This document shows positions 3,024 through 28,548 of a DNA stretch of 64,000 nucleotides, piece by piece. Each line of letters opens with the position of its first letter. The stretch's first letter is position 1. Where the stretch lies: positions 32,001-96,000 of the IMG/VR virus record IMGVR_UViG_3300049046_000039; one strand, given 5' to 3'. This DNA comes from a virus. The position numbers and the translations under genes were made by a program. Below the pieces are notes generated by a model. That model saw only the letters and a program-made list of their open reading frames with translations. It was not told the origin of the DNA and did not search any database.

Positions 3024-4397
3024 TCAACCATTTTTTGCATTATTTCTCACTTGCTCAAACGTGACTTGATTTTGAAGAGCTCCGTTTCTGAAGCGAGTCT
3101 TCAATAGAGAAGGACCGACTGGAGCTCCAGTCTCTAACTTGATTGTTCTATACTCGTCACCTACTTTAATAAGGTCGAGCATTCCGCGCTTAGACTTCTT
3201 GCCCGGGTCGGTAATCGGGTCCTTATATACGTCTCTCCATTCGCCGTCGACGCAGATCGCCGAGCACTTCATTGCAAACTTCAGAGTATCACGATTGACC
3301 TGCTGAAGCAGGGCGCCACCTTGACCAAAGGTAACATTGTCTGCACTATAGTTAGCCATCTCGAGAGAGTACAGAATAGACCTGATGCTAGAGTGGTCGA
3401 TTCCGTCGCCTTGGATGACTCTTACATTATTGAGGACTCTAAACCCTTTATCATTGACAGTGTGACCGAAGTACTTGTCAAGGATTTGAACGCACTTGGT
3501 AACGACCGCAGCCGGGTCGCCCGAGTCGGGACGGACTACCAAAGTAGCCCCGCTCTTAAGCACCTGGTCCTTAAGGATGGTGCCCCACATCTTGCACGCT
3601 TCGAAGATACTGTAGCTGTCGCTAACACATGCGACCAAGCCACCTGGTTTTGCGTGCTTCTGTAAGATGTTGCTGTAGGCTCTAGCCTCGTTCTCTCGAC
3701 CCCAGCTAGTGATGGTAGAGTGCTCTGAAGCAGGAATGCTGAAGCCTACGATGTCTTTAGTATTGTAGTACTTTCTCGCGAAGAGAAGAGATTCGACTGT
3801 GTCGGTTCCCATAAAGTTGATGAGGTGAGCCAGGCCGCCGATGCCGGCAGACTCTAGACTCGAAACACCTCGAGCGCCGAAGTCGTGAAGCTTGAAGTCG
3901 ATTAGAGAAGGATCGCCGGTTCTCTCGAGAGCGTTGAGGATGATCTTCTTGCTATAGTAGCTGTTAGTGGCTACGGTGGTAGGATACCAGATAGCTCTGA
4001 GCAGCGCTGTCTCGAGAAAAGATACTAACCACCAGCACTTCGGGTCGGTGTTCCAGATGTCTACGAGAACATTGCTGGTTGGGAGAATAGTTCCCTCGTC
4101 TACACCCCGGATGTTGACTGGCAGGAATCCGTCGTGTTCATAGACGATGTACTCCCAGCCTTCGCGATAGAAGGGAAGTCCGTGTGCTGTAATGACTGCT
4201 TCGGCTTCGTCGATCATTTCCATTGTGACCTGGTGTGACAGATACTCCTTGAGGAACATCTGAAGTCCGAAGTATACGGTATCGTCGTACTTACCGCCGC
4301 GCGACTCAATGTAAGAGTAGACGTACTCCGTCTTGTCGGGATACTGATTCCACTGACTGTACTTGTACGAGTCGCTGTTAAGAATGATGTTTTGCAT
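3024..4397 (-). CDS. nadV: Nicotinamide phosphoribosyltransferase (NAMPT)
   Basis: DSYKYSQ, LHDFGARG, PASEHS, VVRPDSGDP, IQGDG. Confidence 0.96.
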   Translation of the reverse strand: MQNIILNSDSYKYSQWNQYPDKTEYVYSYIESRGGKYDDTVYFGLQMFLKEYLSHQVTMEMIDEAEAVITAHGLPFYREGWEYIVYEHDGFLPVNIRGVDEGTILPTSNVLVDIWNTDPKCWWLVSFLETALLRAIWYPTTVATNSYYSKKIILNALERTGDPSLIDFKLHDFGARGVSSLESAGIGGLAHLINFMGTDTVESLLFARKYYNTKDIVGFSIPASEHSTITSWGRENEARAYSNILQKHAKPGGLVACVSDSYSIFEACKMWGTILKDQVLKSGATLVVRPDSGDPAAVVTKCVQILDKYFGHTVNDKGFRVLNNVRVIQGDGIDHSSIRSILYSLEMANYSADNVTFGQGGALLQQVNRDTLKFAMKCSAICVDGEWRDVYKDPITDPGKKSKRGMLDLIKVGDEYRTIKLETGAPVGPSLLKTRFRNGALQNQVTFEQVRNNAKNG

Positions 4398-7247: not shown

Positions 7248-7528
7248 TACGTAGTGTATCCCTGATTAGCTAACTCGTAGCCATACATCATCATGCGGCA
7301 CTGAAGAGCGAAGTCTCGAACCTTACGATTAGTATCTAGCTTGTAAGCAGTTATAACTTCGTTAGACTGTAGCTCGTCAGTGGCTAGGCTGGCACAGACG
7401 AGAGCTCGCTGTGCTAACTCAGTGTCGGTAATATCCTGATCGTCATTAGGAACGATCAGTTGTTGCTGAGCATACAGCGCGGCCGGAACGCACACTAAGG
7501 CTGCAGCAGCTAAAAGCAGCTTCTTCAT
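7247..7528 (-). CDS. Secreted hypothetical protein
   Basis: Signal peptide MKKLLLAAAAL...ALYA. Confidence 0.7.
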   Translation of the reverse strand: MKKLLLAAAALVCVPAALYAQQQLIVPNDDQDITDTELAQRALVCASLATDELQSNEVITAYKLDTNRKVRDFALQCRMMMYGYELANQGYTT

Positions 7529-7546
7529 ACAAATTTTCCTTGAAAA

Positions 7547-7875
7547 GTGGTGGGATTCTGTTGCTAGGTTCCCACCGGACCCCAGGACTCACTGCTTAGG
7601 CAGCGAGCGCAAGGACATTGTTGTCGTTTGCGGTTATTTTGTGTGGGCCTTAGCGTGGACCCAAACGATCTTCTCAGTCTAGCCTTCAGCGACCATCGAT
7701 CCTAGTTCGGCCCCATCAGAAGCAGTGGTTGGAAGTCTCTTCATACCAACTTTCATTAAGATCGTCTATAGCCAACCTTAAGACCGTCACTGCTTCTGGT
7801 GGAGCCGCCGGGTACTGCCCCCGGGTCTGATCTCCTATCGTTCAACTTCTGGCATATCTCTATGCCGCGAAGATA
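7547..7875 (-). ncRNA. ssrA: Two-piece (circularly permuted) tmRNA, tag (A)ANDNNVLALAA
   Basis: Acceptor piece ends GGCTCCACCA at 7797; intervening segment 7715-7796; coding piece starts GGGGCC at 7714; tag frame 7631-7596. Outer ends approximate. Confidence 0.93.
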
Positions 7876-7878
7876 GAG

Positions 7879-7909
7879 TATTTATAACATAGCTTGACTA
7901 AAATGTCAA
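7879..7909 (-). promoter_or_regulatory. Overlapping sigma70-type and T4 late promoters for tmRNA
   Basis: TTGACA at 7909-7904; TATAAATA at 7886-7879. Confidence 0.75.
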
Positions 7910-22233: not shown

Positions 22234-23391
22234 TCAAACAATAATGTGAGGAACGAATTTTGCAGTATTGCTAGTAATGAGGCCGTCCTCACGAATGCCC
22301 ATACCTACTGCAGCACCGTCGACCGACCAGACGCCGAGTACGGGATACTTACCACTGAACTCAGGAAGAGAGTAGCGCTCTTGATAGACGTAGCCGTCAG
22401 AACCGTACTCGCCACCGGTCGCGCTAAGAGTCTTACCGAACTGGTCCTTGACAAGGATGTTCGAACCTTCGCGAGCCAGAATAGGCTTCGAGACGTATCC
22501 GCTGGAGAAGTCACGATTGTTGACCGGAACTTCGAAGCTTGCGGCAAGGAGGTTCTTATGATTTGGGAACATCTTCCACAGAATCGGAAGAATCGCCTTG
22601 TTAGACCAGATCATCTTCCAGACAGGTTCGATCCACGTGGTGATGTCGGCTGAAGCGAGAATGTTGTTAGCGAACTTCTCGTTGACCATCCACTCCCAAG
22701 GATAGAGATGCTGAATCGTCGACATATGGTAATTGTCGAGATCAACGAAAGCTTCGCCATCCCAACCGATGTCGTTGATCAGAATACCGTGACTGATGAT
22801 GCCGGCTTCTTCTGCCATATCTCGCATGTAGGAGACATTGACGGCATCTTCACCGGCACCATCGTCGGCGTGAGTAAACCAGACGTGCTTCTCAGGAAGC
22901 AGAGGAGCGATGTACTTCCAGCGCTCGACGATAGCTTCGTGAATGCCATTGAACTGATCCACGCCCTCGCCGAACATGTCGTTCTTCCAGTGCCATTGGA
23001 CTACCGAAGCTTCGAGAAGACTGGTCGGAGTGTCGCAGTTGAACTCGAACATCTTGGGGTCGGTGCGACCGTCATAACCAAAGTCGAAGCGACCGTAGTT
23101 AAGAGCCGGTGGCTCGCTATCCCAAGTGTCGATAATGTACTGGTGGAAGTGAGGAGGAATCCCAAACTGGTTGAGGATGTGGTAGTTAGAGACGATATAG
23201 TCTCCAGCTACAATCATCATCTTGTAGCAGTTGTTAGCCGCTTCCTCAATTCTCTCGATGTCTGAAGACGAGAATGCGTAGTATGCGTCCTCGTTCCAGT
23301 AAGGTTCGGCCGAAGCACTGTGCCAGAGAAGACCCTGACCCTCGACGATCGCCTTCCAATTGTGGCGAGGAGTTGAAGAGTGACGCAGCAT
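22234..23391 (-). CDS. Glutathionylspermidine synthase-like ATP-grasp protein (YgiC family)
   Basis: YGRFD, EFNCDTPTSLLEA, YPWEWM, SNKAILP, REGSN. Confidence 0.95.
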   Translation of the reverse strand: MLRHSSTPRHNWKAIVEGQGLLWHSASAEPYWNEDAYYAFSSSDIERIEEAANNCYKMMIVAGDYIVSNYHILNQFGIPPHFHQYIIDTWDSEPPALNYGRFDFGYDGRTDPKMFEFNCDTPTSLLEASVVQWHWKNDMFGEGVDQFNGIHEAIVERWKYIAPLLPEKHVWFTHADDGAGEDAVNVSYMRDMAEEAGIISHGILINDIGWDGEAFVDLDNYHMSTIQHLYPWEWMVNEKFANNILASADITTWIEPVWKMIWSNKAILPILWKMFPNHKNLLAASFEVPVNNRDFSSGYVSKPILAREGSNILVKDQFGKTLSATGGEYGSDGYVYQERYSLPEFSGKYPVLGVWSVDGAAVGMGIREDGLITSNTAKFVPHIIV

Positions 23392-23823: not shown

Positions 23824-24507
23824 TTAGTACTGGTCGAACTTAAGCAAATTATATCCTCTTAGCAAGCCGCGCTTATGTTCTTCCAGAGGATATACTCCAA
23901 TCGAAGTCTTTTGATTTCCGATGTCCGGTTCTCTAAACACTACGTATGGAACTTTCATGCTCCCCAGAACTTTCTCTACTTCTTCGAGCTCGTACGCGTT
24001 ACGTACTCCGCAGCAAGTAAAGTGTAAGCCCTTAACGAGTTCTGGAGACTTTTGAGCGATGAGTGCGCCAAGTTCGAGAGCAGCGTGAGACGTCTGAACC
24101 AGCTGATACTCGTCGAAGATGTCTTGACGAGTGAAGAAGTAGGAGTACCTCCTGATCAGGAGCGCTCTATTTACGCTTAATCTAAGCGCGTGAAGCTCGG
24201 CGTGCTCTTCTTCGGTCAGAACTTCAGCAGCGTTTTGACCTAGAACAAAGTTCTTCAGACCAATGAGCATGCCGTTGTAGTTGTTGGTGATTGCGTCGAA
24301 TGGAACTCTACCGTTCGCCAGCTTGGACACCTTACTGACCGGAGGAAATGCTCGACGGAGAAGGTGAATGGCGATGTCTCTCTTATCGTCGAGAGATTCT
24401 GCACGGGAGTTGATAGCCTTTAGAAGACAGTAGTCGATCATGTCTCGCGTAGTGTTCTTCTTTTGAGAGGCGAGAGTCTTCCAGGCGGTTTTGTAATCAA
24501 AGTTCAT
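23824..24507 (-). CDS. Two-domain protein with C-terminal peptidyl-tRNA hydrolase 2 (PTH2)-like domain
   Basis: Y.F.RQD......VQ.SHAA...FREPDIGNQKTSI...P...L....LL pattern. Confidence 0.75.
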   Translation of the reverse strand: MNFDYKTAWKTLASQKKNTTRDMIDYCLLKAINSRAESLDDKRDIAIHLLRRAFPPVSKVSKLANGRVPFDAITNNYNGMLIGLKNFVLGQNAAEVLTEEEHAELHALRLSVNRALLIRRYSYFFTRQDIFDEYQLVQTSHAALELGALIAQKSPELVKGLHFTCCGVRNAYELEEVEKVLGSMKVPYVVFREPDIGNQKTSIGVYPLEEHKRGLLRGYNLLKFDQY

Positions 24508-24578
24508 TATTGAATTCCTTAATCTTGAGTAATATAACACGTAATAAAACAAATGTAAATAACATTTTTACGGTAAGA

Positions 24579-24608
24579 TTAAGGCGGGCCGGTTGAGTTC
24601 TAACGCAT
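24579..24608 (-). other. Minigene ATG CGT TAG AAC TCA ACC GGC CCG CCT TAA (M-R-amber-N-S-T-G-P-P)
   Basis: AGGAG SD and TAATG overlap with upstream ORF. Confidence 0.6.
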
Positions 24609-24859
24609 TACTCTTCTCCTGATATTGTTGCGACACCGTCAACAATTTCTACCGAGCACTTCTTGAGCTTGATAGAGCCTTTGGTGTGTGAGTTGTCTGG
24701 AGTTTCTTTTGTAGAGAAGCCGATGTTACAGTCGACATGGTCTACGTAAAACGTCTGCCCTTTTAGTTTAAGAACCCACATGGGAATCTTAGGATCGGCT
24801 AGGTGACCCTTATTGAAGTGAAATACTACTTCTTTACAGTTCTAAAAAGTCTGCTTCAT
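24608..24859 (-). CDS. 83-aa hypothetical protein with in-frame amber codon 6 (readthrough candidate; absent from ORF track)
   Basis: AAGGA SD; MKQTF*NCKEVVFHFNKGHLADPKIPMWVLK...STKETPDNSHTKGSIK...GEE*; TAG at 24844-24842. Confidence 0.75.
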
Positions 24860-24863
24860 TTTG

Positions 24864-25322
24864 TTATTCCTTAAATTCGCTAGTAACATTTACCAACTCT
24901 GTTGGCAGATAGAATACTTCAAAATCTTCAACTACTCTCCAGTATTCGCCGTCAGCCCACGATCCTACTAGTTCTGTTACAGCATCGCGAAGAATGTCTT
25001 CTACGTACTTAGAGTCTTCCTCAGAAAGAATGTGATAGTCGAATTCTTTTGGAACTGACACGTTATTCTGGTTATATGAGTCTACAATCTTCTTAAGATC
25101 TGGAACAAGCTCCGAGTCATTTTCACGACCCTCGTAGTCGCTATGTCTATCGACATTTCCATACTTACCACCATCGTAAGTCGACCTAAACATAAGAGCG
25201 ACGTCGACGTAGAACTTAACATGGTCTACTTCCAGACCAGTGAATTCTTTAGTCATGTAGTTGTCGGCGTCATTTTCCCAAGTGGTCAGCTTAAGAATGT
25301 ATCCAGGCTTAATGTTTGTCAT
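24864..25322 (-). CDS. Hypothetical protein
   Basis: TWENDADNY motif; AAGGTG SD. Confidence 0.75.
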   Translation of the reverse strand: MTNIKPGYILKLTTWENDADNYMTKEFTGLEVDHVKFYVDVALMFRSTYDGGKYGNVDRHSDYEGRENDSELVPDLKKIVDSYNQNNVSVPKEFDYHILSEEDSKYVEDILRDAVTELVGSWADGEYWRVVEDFEVFYLPTELVNVTSEFKE

Positions 25323-25336
25323 AATCACCTTAGTAA

Positions 25337-25413
25337 TGGTGCGCGTGACGGGACTCGAACCCGTGACGTCATGATTTTAGAGATCACCGCTCTTCCAACT
25401 GAGCTACACGCAC
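25337..25413 (-). tRNA. Amber suppressor tRNA (anticodon CUA)
   Basis: Full cloverleaf; anticodon arm GTGAT-CTCTAAA-ATCAT; TTCGAGT T-loop; ACCA end. Confidence 0.92.
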
Positions 25414-25652
25414 ATATTGTTTCTTATGTATGATGCTACCGAACTTGGCGTCATCACGTTTACAGAACATTCATCGTCTGGATATCGGAACTCCGAAGTT
25501 TCGAGTTCTACCGCGTCCACTAACTTCTTAGTGCCAGTCTCTGAGTTTACTATCTCGACGTAAGAGCTACCACGATAGTAGTAATAGTCAGTGCCGTCGA
25601 CGTTAATCGTTCTAGCACCCTTGCGCTTATTTGTCTTGCTCGGTTTACTCAT
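25404..25652 (-). CDS. Hypothetical protein; its TAG stop lies inside the suppressor tRNA
   Basis: GAGG SD before MSKPSK. Confidence 0.7.
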   Translation of the reverse strand: MSKPSKTNKRKGARTINVDGTDYYYYRGSSYVEIVNSETGTKKLVDAVELETSEFRYPDDECSVNVMTPSSVASYIRNNMCV

Positions 25653-25670: not shown

Positions 25671-25761
25671 GGGTTGCCGTGTTTTCCACCATTGGAAAAC
25701 GCCTGTTTTGGCGGCGTTTATTGGAATCGAACCAATTAGTACGGTTTGCTGTAAGCAACCC
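25671..25761 (-). ncRNA. CAGCAA-box RNA unit A (permuted tRNA module: T arm, acceptor with GCCA, D-like arm)
   Basis: GGGTTGC-TTACAGCAA...GCAACCC; ATTGG-TTCGATT-CCAAT; AAACGCC-GCCA-AAACA-GGCGTTT. Confidence 0.8.
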
Positions 25762-25770
25762 ATTTTTTTA

Positions 25771-25878
25771 CAGGATCAACTTGGTTTGTTGCCTTTACCG
25801 TTTGGCTATTCGTCGAAGTCGACAAAATGGGAATCGAACCCATAATACACAAATTGTGTGATTTGCTGAACTGATCCT
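25771..25878 (-). ncRNA. CAGCAA-box RNA unit B (T arm, loop-closed acceptor, D arm)
   Basis: AGGATCAG-TTCAGCAA...TTGATCCT; ATGGG-TTCGATT-CCCAT; TTTGTCG-ACTT-CGACGAA; TAGCCAAACGGTAAAGGCA. Confidence 0.8.
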
Positions 25879-25887
25879 AAATTAGTA

Positions 25888-25984
25888 CAGGCTTCAGATT
25901 TAGGTGGGAATCGAACCCACACAGATCGATTAGAAGTCGATTGCTCTACCTTTGAGCTACTGAAAGGTTTGCTGTAAGAAGCCT
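25888..25984 (-). ncRNA. CAGCAA-box RNA unit C (D arm, Arg-UCU anticodon arm, T arm; no CCA)
   Basis: AGGCTTC-TTACAGCAA...GAAGCCT; ATCGA-CTTCTAA-TCGAT; GTGGG-TTCGATT-CCCAC. Confidence 0.8.
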
Positions 25985-25993
25985 TATAACCTA

Positions 25994-26022
25994 ATTATAT
26001 AACTTTTGTCTAAGAATGTCAA
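25994..26022 (-). promoter_or_regulatory. sigma70-type promoter for units C-B-A and the suppressor operon
   Basis: TTGACA-17 nt-TATAAT. Confidence 0.8.
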
Positions 26023-27096: not shown

Positions 27097-28548
27097 TTAC
27101 CTGAAGTCATACTTAGACTGCATGACAGTCTTACGCATGATACCTTCGGGAGTCATGTCGTCGTAGTTAGCGCCGAGAACGGCCTTCATGATCGCTGGCG
27201 AGAAGCCAGAGACGAGGGCAGTTCCAGTCTCGTCGAATGAAACCGGCACGTTACCGTGAGAGTTGAGGTTCCAGAAGACTACTGCCGGAGCTTCGTAACC
27301 AGCACGACGGTACTCGTTACGGATCATCTCGATTGCTCGAGGGTCGTGAGCTTTCGCGCTAGAGCTCCAGCCGCCGCCACCAGTGCCTACGCACTGGTTG
27401 AACTGCATGTCAGACATGATTAGGAGCATCGTTGGCATTTCTGCCGCAGGCACCTTACCCTTGACTGCAGTATCGAGGATGCGATGGAGCGCCTTCTCGA
27501 GGTCGGTAGACATGTTCCAAGACGATCTCGCCATGGCGTTGTATCGCTGAGACAGCGTACCCTTGACGGTCACGAACTCAGGCTCACTGGAGAAGGTAAG
27601 GAACATGTCCTTGAACTTACCAGTGTTCTTGCTCGCGCAATAGAGACCTAGAGAGATCGCTACGTCGAGACAGGTGACATCCACGCCCTTCGTACCACCG
27701 CCGGCGCGGCAGCCCATAGAACCTGAAACGTCTACCAGAGGCAGAACGTTAGCGTCGCCGATAAAGTTAGGTAGAGCGTCCCACTGAGCGTTAGCCACGG
27801 TAGAGTCACCGTATCTCACGGTCTTGATGATGTCGTAAGGGTATACGGCACCAGCGTTGACCTTGACACCCTTGTCGCCACGCTTGAGAGCTTCCTTGTA
27901 TGCAGTGAACTGCGTAGGAGCCTTCTTAGCGAAAGCCTTGGTGTAGCGAGACATAGCCAGAGAAGGAACGTGGTTGAAGTTGATAGCTTCAAACTCACGG
28001 TTACACATCTGAGTCTCGACAACTCTCGTGAGGTTCACGAGCAGCTTGCGGTACTGCTTTGGAGACATTGCCATGAAGTTGCGCAGCTCTACAGCCTTAG
28101 CGCCCTTACGTGGCATCCACTTAGCGGCCAGACCATTACCGTTCTGGAGGTTCTCCTGAATGAGAGAGAACGCTACAGACTTCACTTCCTCGGTGTTGAA
28201 CACGAGAAGGTCGTCGAAGCGGCCCAGATCAGGAACACGCGACAGAAGGTTAGTCTTGGTGAGGTAGTCAGGGTTGACTTTCTCGAGATGGAGAAGGATG
28301 TCGCGGAAGAGCTTACGCTCACCGGCGCCGCCGCGGATGTCGCGAGCCCAGAGGGCGATACGGATAGCCAGTTCGCTGTCTTCTACCAGCGCCTTGTTGA
28401 AGAGGCCGGTAACGTCCTTGCCACGCATAGCGCCGATCTGACCAAAGAGGTCTACGTTGGCGCGCATGGTTGACTTGTATGCAGCCATGCCATTCGTGGT
28501 CTTGGTTTTTACAGGAGTGTTGTTTACTGCATTCGCAAAAGTATTCAT
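27097..28548 (-). CDS. TROVE-like helical domain + vWA protein (DUF2828-type, Ro60-like architecture)
   Basis: RDIRGGAGER, GRFDDL, AAKWMPR; MIDAS DVSGSM and SDMQF; VFWNL, LVSGFSP. Confidence 0.85.
   Translation of the reverse strand: MNTFANAVNNTPVKTKTTNGMAAYKSTMRANVDLFGQIGAMRGKDVTGLFNKALVEDSELAIRIALWARDIRGGAGERKLFRDILLHLEKVNPDYLTKTNLLSRVPDLGRFDDLLVFNTEEVKSVAFSLIQENLQNGNGLAAKWMPRKGAKAVELRNFMAMSPKQYRKLLVNLTRVVETQMCNREFEAINFNHVPSLAMSRYTKAFAKKAPTQFTAYKEALKRGDKGVKVNAGAVYPYDIIKTVRYGDSTVANAQWDALPNFIGDANVLPLVDVSGSMGCRAGGGTKGVDVTCLDVAISLGLYCASKNTGKFKDMFLTFSSEPEFVTVKGTLSQRYNAMARSSWNMSTDLEKALHRILDTAVKGKVPAAEMPTMLLIMSDMQFNQCVGTGGGGWSSSAKAHDPRAIEMIRNEYRRAGYEAPAVVFWNLNSHGNVPVSFDETGTALVSGFSPAIMKAVLGANYDDMTPEGIMRKTVMQSKYDFR

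What the first reader, a model, noticed from the sequence alone, without database searches (positions are those of the whole stretch)
23824..25413. Amber-readthrough module: suppressor tRNA, TAG-interrupted gene, amber minigene and PTH2-like gene
Seen, in transcription order: tRNA(CUA) at 25413-25337; one ORF; an 83-codon gene with SD whose sixth codon is TAG; the coupled minigene M-R-TAG-N-S-T-G-P-P-TAA; then a PTH2-like gene. Both ambers have the identical context TAG AAC T. TAG still ends ordinary genes here (for example 5561, 49901, 58039), so the genome is not globally recoded. Known: very short ORFs and Pro-Pro-stop promote peptidyl-tRNA drop-off or stalling, which Pth and tmRNA resolve. 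Inference: a local circuit in which competition between suppressor and RF1 gates expression, for example sensing tRNA or release-factor damage by host defences. I know of no description of this arrangement.
Basis: partly seen in the sequence, partly recalled or inferred. Interest (0 to 1): 0.9.

Follow-up and report, generated by a model that had tools for sequence, protein, structure and literature searches.

The report
Phage genes gated by amber-suppressor tRNA
A soil phage that otherwise uses the normal genetic code carries its own UAG-reading tRNA beside a small gene with UAG as its sixth codon and a tiny UAG-containing leader ahead of a peptidyl-tRNA-hydrolase-like gene; well over a hundred other phages keep the same layout, so it looks like a natural and apparently unpublished switch that reports stop-codon read-through.

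Summary
On the minus strand lie a well-formed tRNA(CUA), an 83-codon gene with TAG as codon 6, a 9-codon mini-ORF (M-R-TAG-N-S-T-G-P-P-TAA) and a gene whose C-terminal half has the Pth2 fold.

In 160 related viral loci, nearly every stand-alone homologue has TAG, never TAA or TGA, 1-6 codons after its ATG. The exceptions are two or three copies that have an in-frame ATG after the stop. The codons after the TAG are under protein-level selection. A same-strand tRNA(CUA) usually lies nearby.

The mini-ORF recurs in front of Pth2-like genes in distant phages as ATG-x-TAG-x-Pro-Pro-stop. Its end pairs with the next gene's Shine-Dalgarno sequence.

In a related jumbo-phage clade the canonical Pth2 gene is gated by TAG where the phage has tRNA(CUA), and by TGA where it has tRNA(UCA). 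That makes 5 of 5 concordant, including the cultured phages Phosso and Atu_ph07.

TAG still ends about 20% of long ORFs here, so the genome is not recoded.

Best reading: expression depends on the suppressor tRNA, directly for the small gene and through the leader for the hydrolase. The biological purpose, the inserted amino acid and the function of the small protein are unknown. This scan found the same design earlier on other DNA; I found no publication.

The parts
25994..26022 (-). Consensus sigma-70-like promoter (TTGACA-17-TATAAT) upstream of the unit
   Evidence: 12 of 12 matches in the promoter scan. No terminator-like site lies on the minus strand between it and 23300. This is a consensus match only.
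25337..25413 (-). Amber-suppressor-type tRNA, anticodon CUA, discriminator A73, encoded CCA
   Evidence: ARAGORN. Rfam RF00005 59.2 bits, E=1.4e-11. It belongs to a coherent family of 47 distinct CUA tRNAs with a conserved GCGC...GCGC-A-CCA acceptor end.
24864..25322 (-). Intervening ORF (152 aa, phrog_2290, function unknown); not a conserved member of the module
   Evidence: PHROG hit E=6e-22. No homologue in the related loci.
24608..24859 (-). 83-codon gene for the 'FHFNK' domain protein, directly gated by TAG at codon 6
   Evidence: Translation. 442 relatives in IMG/VR. FHFNK is invariant in 100 of 100 unique sequences with roughly 50:50 synonymous codons upstream of the first in-frame ATG.
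24842..24844 (-). Gating amber codon (TAG followed by A)
   Evidence: Nearly every stand-alone homologue has TAG here, never TAA or TGA. The next base is A in 47 of 51 distinct contexts.
24579..24608 (-). Leader mini-ORF M-R-TAG-N-S-T-G-P-P-TAA (TAG 24602-24600, Pro-Pro 24587-24582, TAA 24581-24579)
   Evidence: L004 keeps M-L-R-TAG-N-S-T-G-P-P-TGA with 5 synonymous changes in 6 codons. The pattern occurs 14 distinct times on the module strand against 0-2 in each of five controls.
24575..24584 (-). 5' arm CCUUAAUCUU (second Pro codon, stop, 4 nt), complementary to the SD region of the next gene
   Evidence: Read from the sequence. Paired in the MFE of the 116-nt context. In a longer context the SD pairs with codons 2-4 instead.
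24531..24559 (-). Sigma-70-like promoter (TTTACA-17-TATATT, TG-extended) inside the loop
   Evidence: 10 of 12 matches. Equivalent hexamers are present in L004 and L084-L086.
24517..24526 (-). 3' arm AAGAUUAAGG containing the Shine-Dalgarno AAGGA of the Pth2-like gene
   Evidence: Covarying arms in relatives: L086 CCUUGAUC/GAUCAAGG; L084 a 17-bp stem.
23824..24507 (-). 227-aa protein: helical N-domain plus a C-terminal Pth2-fold domain
   Evidence: AF2 pLDDT 92. Foldseek top 11 hits are all Pth2/Bit1 structures. 68 full-length homologues without a Pfam domain. Pfam PTH2 is below threshold.

Best explanation
This is a suppressor-tRNA-dependent translation module in a phage that uses the standard code. 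The phage encodes a tRNA that reads UAG. Two neighbouring genes appear to be wired so that they are translated only when that tRNA outcompetes release factor 1.

(1) Direct gating of the small FHFNK-domain gene. Ribosomes start at a normal SD and ATG and meet UAG at codon 6. Without read-through they release a pentapeptide. With read-through they make the 82-residue protein.

(2) Indirect gating of the Pth2-like gene. A 9-codon leader overlaps the stop of the previous gene. It holds UAG at codon 3 and ends Gly-Pro-Pro-UAA. Its last Pro codon and stop are complementary to the SD region of the Pth2-like gene. A ribosome that stops at the UAG stays about 18 nt short of this sequence. A ribosome that reads through sits on it, probably lingering at Pro-Pro-stop, and should free the SD.

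What is shown: the conserved anatomy, TAG exclusivity, coding selection after the TAG, tRNA linkage, stop/anticodon covariation, and the Pth2 fold.

What is inferred: that read-through happens, that the leader ribosome stalls and unmasks the SD, and that the hydrolase acts on peptidyl- or aminoacyl-tRNA. The purpose is open: a timer, a feedback loop on the cost of suppression, or a lock that ties the genes to their tRNA.
For: - TAG gating is general. In 80 loci plus Rhizobium phage RHph_I1_18, the first in-frame stop upstream of the conserved domain is TAG, 1-6 codons after an SD-preceded ATG. One copy instead has an ATG after the stop. A second set gives 63 of 63 stand-alone copies TAG-gated.
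- The 20 codons between the TAG and the first in-frame ATG show protein-level selection.
- A same-strand tRNA(CUA) lies within 6 kb in 74 of 84 loci, often 40-300 nt upstream and often as the only tRNA there.
- Gated versus ungated copies differ in tRNA(CUA) linkage: 47/63 against 3/17, Fisher p=3e-5.
- Covariation: the canonical Pth2 gene of the jumbo clade carries TAG with tRNA(CUA) (Phosso, L157) and TGA with tRNA(UCA) (L159, L185, Atu_ph07) (PMC6102473 read).
- The genome is not recoded.
- The leader keeps TAG and in-frame Pro-Pro in 18 of 18 examples, while the residues between them vary.
- In 9 of 12 loci a modelled ribosome frees the SD at the leader's final stop but not at its TAG.
- The last gene has the Pth2 fold.
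- The base after the gating TAG is A in 92% of contexts. From the classical suppression literature, recalled and not tested here, this context favours suppression.
Against: - There is no expression, proteomic or charging data. The amino acid inserted is unknown (one search gives no clear parent isotype).
- In the window itself the anti-SD model is equivocal. With 20 nt of coding sequence added, the SD pairs with codons 2-4, and masking the leader does not open it.
- A promoter-like site inside the loop could give transcripts that lack the leader and so bypass gating.
- The window's motif is T-G-P-P, not the R-[AG]-P-P of proven arrest peptides.
- About 15-25% of gated loci show no tRNA(CUA). 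Five such records had none in the tRNA arrays I sampled, but these records are fragments.
- Efficient suppression would also extend the roughly 20% of phage genes that end in TAG.
- In most relatives the codon after the TAG is ATT, a weak start codon, so reinitiation cannot be excluded for that subgroup. The window has AAC.
Confidence: 0.7

Rival explanations
1. Termination-reinitiation. The ATG-x-TAG is a two- to five-codon upstream mini-ORF. After termination the ribosome restarts at the next codon or nearby, and the tRNA(CUA) plays no part.
For: Most relatives have ATT, a known weak initiator, directly after the TAG. Some gated loci lack a detectable tRNA(CUA).
Against: Any stop codon would serve this mechanism. 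Yet TAG, the rarest stop in these phages (about 6% of long-ORF stops), is used in every gated case and TAA (about 70%) never. The window, L004, L005 and L022 have AAC, GTC, CAA and AAT after the TAG. Linkage to tRNA(CUA) and the TAG/CUA versus TGA/UCA covariation would be left unexplained.
Confidence: 0.1
2. Partial or incipient stop-codon recoding (code-15-like). The phage is on the way to reading TAG as an amino acid genome-wide, and these are simply the first recoded genes.
For: Recoded phages carry suppressor tRNAs and in-frame TAGs (papers listed, for example 10.1101/2021.08.26.457843).
Against: TAG ends 39 of 199 long ORFs here, and only one gene plus one leader carry an in-frame TAG. 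The TAG always sits at codons 2-7 of the same families across very distant phages, which points to a positional, regulatory use rather than drift.
Confidence: 0.05
3. The TAGs are real, but the tRNA's main job lies elsewhere, for example as a decoy or replacement against host tRNA-targeting defences. The gated genes are then passive hitch-hikers kept silent, and the mini-ORF and hairpin act only as an RNA element such as a processing site or transcriptional attenuator.
For: The function of both proteins is unproven. The stem encloses a promoter-like site in the window's clade. The in-silico opening fails for the window.
Against: Permanently silent genes would not keep protein-level selection (68 full-length Pth2-like homologues). 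The leader keeps the Pro-Pro reading frame in 18 of 18 cases, which a pure RNA element would not require.
Confidence: 0.1
4. Assembly or sequencing error, or pseudogenes.
For: None beyond the presence of in-frame stops.
Against: An identical contig at depth 34, and near relatives in other studies that keep the features. Conservation in more than 140 loci.
Confidence: 0.01

Closest known systems
Arrest-peptide leaders that open an SD-sequestering stem-loop (SecM-secA; ApdA/ApdP with R-A-P-P; the RQH family with R-G-P-P, H-A-P-P, Q-A-P-P; NSP-stop and NAP-stop leaders), Fujiwara et al. 2024, PMC10987492
   Same: A short upstream ORF ends in a Pro-rich motif at or next to a stop codon, and its ribosome would sit on a stem that hides the next gene's SD. 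Several relatives carry exact RGPP or RAPP (L138, L141, L129, L117).
   Different: The input is new. The arrest or unmasking site is reached only if an in-frame UAG is read through, so the leader would report suppressor-tRNA versus RF1 activity rather than secretion status or a small molecule. The leaders are 8-20 codons long with no localisation signal. The window's motif is TGPP-stop. Arrest is untested.
Stop-codon-recoded phages with their own suppressor tRNAs (TAG read as Gln, TGA as Trp; crAss-like, Lak and others)
   Same: A phage-encoded tRNA(CUA) or tRNA(UCA) and in-frame stop codons that must be read through. Regulation of a gene subset has been proposed.
   Different: Here TAG remains an ordinary terminator (about 20% of long ORFs). 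Only one or two specific genes carry one stop each, always within the first few codons, next to the tRNA.
Synthetic UAG translational switches from genetic-code expansion (review PMC6412442, listed; not read beyond the abstract)
   Same: A target gene carries an early UAG and is expressed only when an orthogonal suppressor tRNA is active.
   Different: Those are engineered. This would be a natural counterpart maintained by selection in many phage lineages.
Peptidyl-tRNA hydrolase 2 (Pth2/Bit1, PF01981)
   Same: The C-terminal 110 residues have the Pth2 fold. Motifs resembling R-x-D and Q-x-x-H-A are invariant in the family. The jumbo-phage relatives have a bona fide PTH2 (E=2e-16) in the same neighbourhood.
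   Different: The sequence score is below Pfam's threshold (13.5 against 23 bits). There is an extra 117-residue helical N-domain. The catalytic residues are not mapped and the activity is unknown.

Membership tests
tRNA (Rfam RF00005), amber-suppressor type | Cloverleaf scoring above the family's gathering score | tested here: met
   59.2 bits against 29, E=1.4e-11, full-length match. ARAGORN calls it too.
tRNA (Rfam RF00005), amber-suppressor type | Anticodon CUA in a 7-nt loop with U33 and a purine at 37 | tested here: met
   The loop is CUCUAAA.
tRNA (Rfam RF00005), amber-suppressor type | Is aminoacylated and decodes UAG on the ribosome | not testable with these tools
   Supported only indirectly, by TAG/CUA and TGA/UCA covariation.
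Peptidyl-tRNA hydrolase PTH2 (PF01981) | Sequence score at or above Pfam's gathering score | tested here: not met
   13.5 bits against 23. 8 of 39 homologues hit, best E=0.001. A profile search against PDB sequences finds nothing.
Peptidyl-tRNA hydrolase PTH2 (PF01981) | Pth2 alpha/beta fold | tested here: met
   Foldseek ranks 1-11 are all Pth2/Bit1 structures: E 4e-6 to 2e-4, TM normalised to the target 0.69-0.74, rmsd 2.5-3.1 A.
Peptidyl-tRNA hydrolase PTH2 (PF01981) | Catalytic residues and hydrolase activity | tested here: inconclusive
   The invariant residues R127, D129, Q138, H141 and D195 resemble Pth2 motifs by eye. hhalign against one Pth2 was not significant.
Arrest-peptide / SD-unmasking leaders (SecM, ApdA/ApdP, RQH, NSP-stop) | Short ORF immediately upstream of, and co-oriented with, the regulated gene | tested here: met
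   The leader is at 24608-24579 and the regulated ATG at 24507. The same layout recurs in at least 14 distinct loci.
Arrest-peptide / SD-unmasking leaders (SecM, ApdA/ApdP, RQH, NSP-stop) | R-A-P-P-like or Pro-stop arrest motif at the C-terminus | tested here: inconclusive
   The window has T-G-P-P-stop. Relatives have RGPP, RAPP, KPP and QPP. Pro-Pro is in frame in 18 of 18. Arrest was not measured.
Arrest-peptide / SD-unmasking leaders (SecM, ApdA/ApdP, RQH, NSP-stop) | Stem-loop that sequesters the SD and is overlapped by the stalled ribosome | tested here: inconclusive
   The window has a 10-bp complement, paired in a 116-nt fold but not in a 141-nt fold. It is clearly met in 9 of 12 related loci.
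Stop-codon-recoded phage (genetic code 15-like) | TAG no longer used as a terminator, with many in-frame TAGs | tested here: not met
   TAG ends 39 of 199 ORFs of at least 100 aa. There is one convincing in-frame TAG gene.
Pyrrolysine system (ARAGORN labels the tRNA 'Pyl') | pylS and pylBCD genes and the unusual tRNA-Pyl architecture | not tested
   ARAGORN's label follows from the anticodon alone. The tRNA fits the canonical model over its full length. The pyl genes were not searched for.

The most novel reading that the evidence does not exclude
Standard-code phages of many lineages carry a small, portable 'suppressor regulon'. It consists of an orthogonal-like UAG (or UGA) reading tRNA, genes locked by one early stop codon, and a stop-codon-gated arrest leader. 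Its outputs, a Pth2-type hydrolase and the FHFNK protein, feed back on peptidyl- or aminoacyl-tRNA metabolism. The phage would thereby measure and tune read-through, or the balance of RF1 and tRNA, in the infected cell. This would be a natural read-through sensor with no described precedent, and it is testable in the cultured phages Atu_ph07, Phosso and RHph_I1_18.
Probability: 0.35. Interest if true: 0.9.

Novelty: new variant of a known kind. Interest (0 to 1): 0.8.

Why it matters
Phage suppressor tRNAs are usually explained by genome-wide recoding or by codon-usage matching. Here, in standard-code phages, such a tRNA would have specific, conserved client genes.

That would be a natural counterpart of the UAG switches built in synthetic biology. 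It would also add a new input, stop-codon read-through, to the family of leader-peptide attenuators.

The finding has a practical side. The clients are missed or truncated by gene callers:
- The RHph_I1_18 homologue is unannotated.
- The Pth2 genes of Phosso and Atu_ph07 are annotated from an internal ATG.

The link to a peptidyl-tRNA hydrolase, in a phage that also carries a tmRNA, points to phage control of translation quality or ribosome rescue.

Three cultured phages of Agrobacterium, Sinorhizobium and Rhizobium make the idea directly testable.

Tried and rejected
- **Function of the FHFNK domain.** There is no Pfam or PHROG family. Foldseek against PDB and BFVD finds only uncharacterised phage proteins. 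The VIA-align wide search matches only the C-domain of the long forms, to generic ACT/RRM-like folds at Z about 5. The ESM Atlas gives a weak FHA lead with few shared features. I do not rely on any of these.
- **Parent isotype of the tRNA.** Nearest-neighbour comparison with 224 other phage tRNAs is scattered: Arg 15, Phe 11, Gly 5, and others. No amino acid can be named.
- **Sequence-level proof of Pth2 membership.** A single-sequence and a profile search of PDB sequences and hhalign against the Phosso Pth2 found nothing significant.
- **TAA- or TGA-gated copies of the FHFNK gene.** None were found in 160 loci. Covariation was found only for the Pth2 gene of the jumbo clade.
- **A separate gene for the long-form C-domain** in this genome or in the short-form loci: none found.
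- **tRNA(CUA) in five gated records that lack one nearby.** None turned up in the tRNA arrays I fetched, but these records are 6-71% complete fragments.
- **RNA evidence.** No RNA holder is listed for this stretch. Only contigs could be laid, so nothing can be said about expression.
- **Literature.** Four full-text searches found no description of an early stop codon paired with a suppressor tRNA in standard-code phages.
Full report
**Anatomy in the window**

The window is part of a 115.8-kb single-contig virus record from a soil metagenome. The record encodes a DNA polymerase, a DnaB-like helicase, ribonucleotide reductase and NAMPT. It also carries 34 tRNAs and a tmRNA.

All elements lie on the minus strand:
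- A consensus promoter at 26022-25994.
- tRNA(CUA) at 25413-25337. ARAGORN calls it. Rfam's tRNA model gives 59.2 bits against a gathering score of 29.
- A 152-aa ORF of unknown function (phrog_2290).
- An 83-codon gene at 24859-24608, with an AAGGA Shine-Dalgarno sequence and TAG as codon 6.
- A mini-ORF at 24608-24579 reading M-R-TAG-N-S-T-G-P-P-TAA. Its ATG overlaps the preceding stop.
- A promoter-like TTTACA-17-TATATT.
- A 227-aa gene at 24507-23824.

TAG terminates 39 of 199 ORFs of at least 100 aa, and no other credible early-TAG gene exists in the genome. The genome is therefore not recoded.

**The early TAG is a family trait**

I searched IMG/VR with the part of the protein that follows the TAG. 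This gave 115 relatives with a single query and 442 with a profile.

In the first 80 loci and in Rhizobium phage RHph_I1_18, the first in-frame stop upstream of the conserved domain is TAG every time. It lies 1-6 codons after an ATG that has a good SD. In RHph_I1_18 the gene is not annotated at all. One copy has no ATG before the TAG and one shortly after it, so it is not gated.

In a second set of 80 loci, all 63 stand-alone copies that lack an in-frame ATG after the stop are TAG-gated. The other 17 are mostly fused behind a helical domain in jumbo phages and have no early stop. Two of them are stand-alone copies with an ATG after the stop.

TAG is the rarest terminator in these phages, about 6% of long-ORF stops against about 70% for TAA. 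TAA and TGA never occupy the gating position.

The 20 codons between the TAG and the first in-frame ATG are clearly translated. F-H-F-N-K is invariant in 100 of 100 distinct sequences while the synonymous codons split about evenly. The base after the gating TAG is A in 47 of 51 distinct contexts, against 36-50% for terminating TAGs.

Contigs from the likely source run are identical at depth 34. Near relatives from other studies keep the leader and the in-frame TAG.

**Linkage to the tRNA, and covariation**

A same-strand tRNA(CUA) lies within 6 kb in 74 of 84 loci. It is often 40-300 nt upstream and is often the only tRNA there. Several of the exceptions are cut off upstream.

In the second set, 47 of 63 gated copies have one within 4 kb, against 3 of 17 ungated copies (Fisher p=3e-5; the loci are not fully independent).

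The 47 distinct CUA tRNAs share a GCGC...GCGC-A-CCA acceptor end while their D-arms vary. This suggests one shared charging identity, which I could not name.

The strongest evidence comes from the jumbo-phage clade, where a bona fide PTH2 gene (Pfam E=2e-16) lies two genes upstream of the FHFNK domain. Its true start is upstream of the annotated ATG and carries an in-frame stop at codons 2-8:
- TAG in Phosso and ten other loci.
- TGA in Atu_ph07, L159 and L185.

Wherever the suppressor is known, the two match. tRNA(CUA) goes with TAG (Phosso, L157). tRNA(UCA) goes with TGA (L159, L185, and Atu_ph07, whose paper reports a UCA suppressor: PMC6102473). That is five of five.

**The mini-ORF is a conserved leader**

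The closest relative, L004, has M-L-R-TAG-N-S-T-G-P-P-TGA at the same place, with five synonymous changes in the six codons after the TAG.

I used the Pth2-like protein family to fetch 64 further loci. Short ORFs of the form ATG-x(1-9)-TAG-x(1-8)-Pro-Pro-stop lie directly upstream of the Pth2-like gene, or of the gene for its separated N-domain. They lie downstream of a tRNA(CUA). Examples are MR*FKPP*, MN*QLAQPP*, MRNKQL*QVRGPP* and ..PR*SIRAPP*.

A strict pattern search finds 14 distinct cases on the module strand, against 0-2 in each of five controls: the opposite strand, and TAA or TGA in place of TAG.

The Pro-Pro is in frame in 18 of 18 cases, while the third base of the first Pro codon varies. 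This argues for selection on the peptide as well as on the RNA.

The second Pro codon plus the stop is complementary to the SD region of the next gene. The arms covary:
- Window: CCUUAAUCUU / AAGAUUAAGG.
- L086: CCUUGAUC / GAUCAAGG.
- L084: a 17-bp stem.

I modelled a ribosome footprint at the TAG and at the final stop. In 9 of 12 loci the SD opens only at the final stop.

For the window itself the model is equivocal. In a longer context the SD pairs with codons 2-4 of its own gene. A promoter-like site inside the loop could also produce leaderless transcripts.

**The proteins**

The 227-aa protein has 68 full-length homologues without a Pfam domain. Pfam PTH2 is below threshold. A confident AlphaFold2 model (pLDDT 92) nonetheless places residues 118-227 on archaeal Pth2 and human Bit1 structures as the top eleven Foldseek hits. 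So it has the Pth2 fold, with unproven activity and an added helical N-domain.

The FHFNK protein is the N-domain of a family whose usual form is about 185 aa. The window and a few relatives have the N-domain only. It is all-beta with no recognisable match.

**Reading**

The most economical explanation is suppressor-dependent translation. It would act directly on the small gene and through an SD-masking, Pro-Pro-stop leader on the hydrolase.

This combines two known kinds. One is phage suppressor tRNAs. The other is arrest-type leaders such as SecM, ApdA/ApdP, the RGPP/RAPP 'RQH' family and the NSP-stop leaders (PMC10987492). The new element is the input: stop-codon read-through.

The rivals fit the data poorly:
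- Reinitiation after a mini-ORF does not explain why only TAG is used, nor the covariation.
- Incipient recoding does not fit the constant position of the stop or the normal use of TAG as a terminator.
- Error or pseudogene is excluded.

What the switch is for remains open: a timer, a feedback loop on the costs of suppression, or a lock that ties the genes to their tRNA.

**Earlier notes of this scan**

Look-ups showed that the scan had already met the same design on other genomes, both as amber-gated genes and as amber-gated leaders before Pth2-like genes. I reached the leader and anti-SD reading before the second look-up. I took from those notes the pointer to PMC10987492 and the covariation claim, and tested both here. 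Four literature searches found no published description.

Noticed in passing
window 25700-25970 (- strand): Just downstream of the perfect promoter lies a tRNA-like array. Rfam's tRNA model hits 25966-25896 at 55 bits, which ARAGORN does not call. There is a weak YrlA (Y RNA-like) hit at 25851-25784 (24.5 bits, below threshold). Three GGTTCGATTCC T-arm-like hairpins are present. This may be a phage Y-RNA-like or tRNA-mimic RNA.
   Followed up: partly
window 27097-28548 (- strand): A 483-aa protein with DUF2828 plus DUF7788, which PHROGs calls an 'RNA-binding protein' (phrog_850). It lies close to the tRNA-like array and to tRNA-Gly(UCC). It may be a partner of the Y-RNA-like element.
   Followed up: partly
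window 7505-7889 (- strand): A phage-encoded tmRNA with tag peptide ANDNNVLALAA, in the same genome as the suppressor tRNA and the Pth2-like gene. It fits a ribosome-rescue theme, but no link was tested.
   Followed up: no
window 25404-25652 (- strand): The 82-aa ORF upstream ends with a TAG that lies inside the 5' end of the tRNA(CUA) gene, overlapping it by 10 nt.
   Followed up: no
L002:5890-6384 (Sinorhizobium phage Phosso) and L003:5935-6384 (Agrobacterium phage Atu_ph07): The annotated peptidyl-tRNA hydrolase/hypothetical genes start at an internal ATG. The conserved first strand (IYSI[IV]R.DLEM) lies upstream and in frame, behind M-K-Y-TAG in Phosso and M-I-G-E-H-F-TGA in Atu_ph07. Both are probably mis-annotated stop-gated genes.
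   Followed up: yes
L001:2968-3216 and 3855-4327 (Rhizobium phage RHph_I1_18): The TAG-gated FHFNK gene is unannotated and abuts tRNA(CUA). A leader, M-L-TAG-F-K-P-P-TAA, precedes a 127-aa helical protein that resembles the N-domain fused to FHFNK in the jumbo phages.
   Followed up: partly
L008, L016 and most FHFNK loci: The usual form of the family is about 185 aa, with a C-terminal ferredoxin-like (ACT/RRM-like) domain and an acidic tail. The window's gene is a short, N-domain-only form, and the genome has no separate C-domain gene.
   Followed up: partly
L015, L050, L165, L170, L217 (records G001-G005): These are tRNA-rich phage fragments (29-46 tRNA hits each). Each has a TAG-gated FHFNK gene, but I found no CUA tRNA in the arrays sampled. 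Either the suppressor lies elsewhere or these phages rely on another source of read-through.
   Followed up: partly
window 22234-23391 and 3024-4397 (- strand): Auxiliary metabolic genes: a glutathionylspermidine synthase-like protein (phrog_6215) and nicotinamide phosphoribosyltransferase (phrog_448).
   Followed up: no
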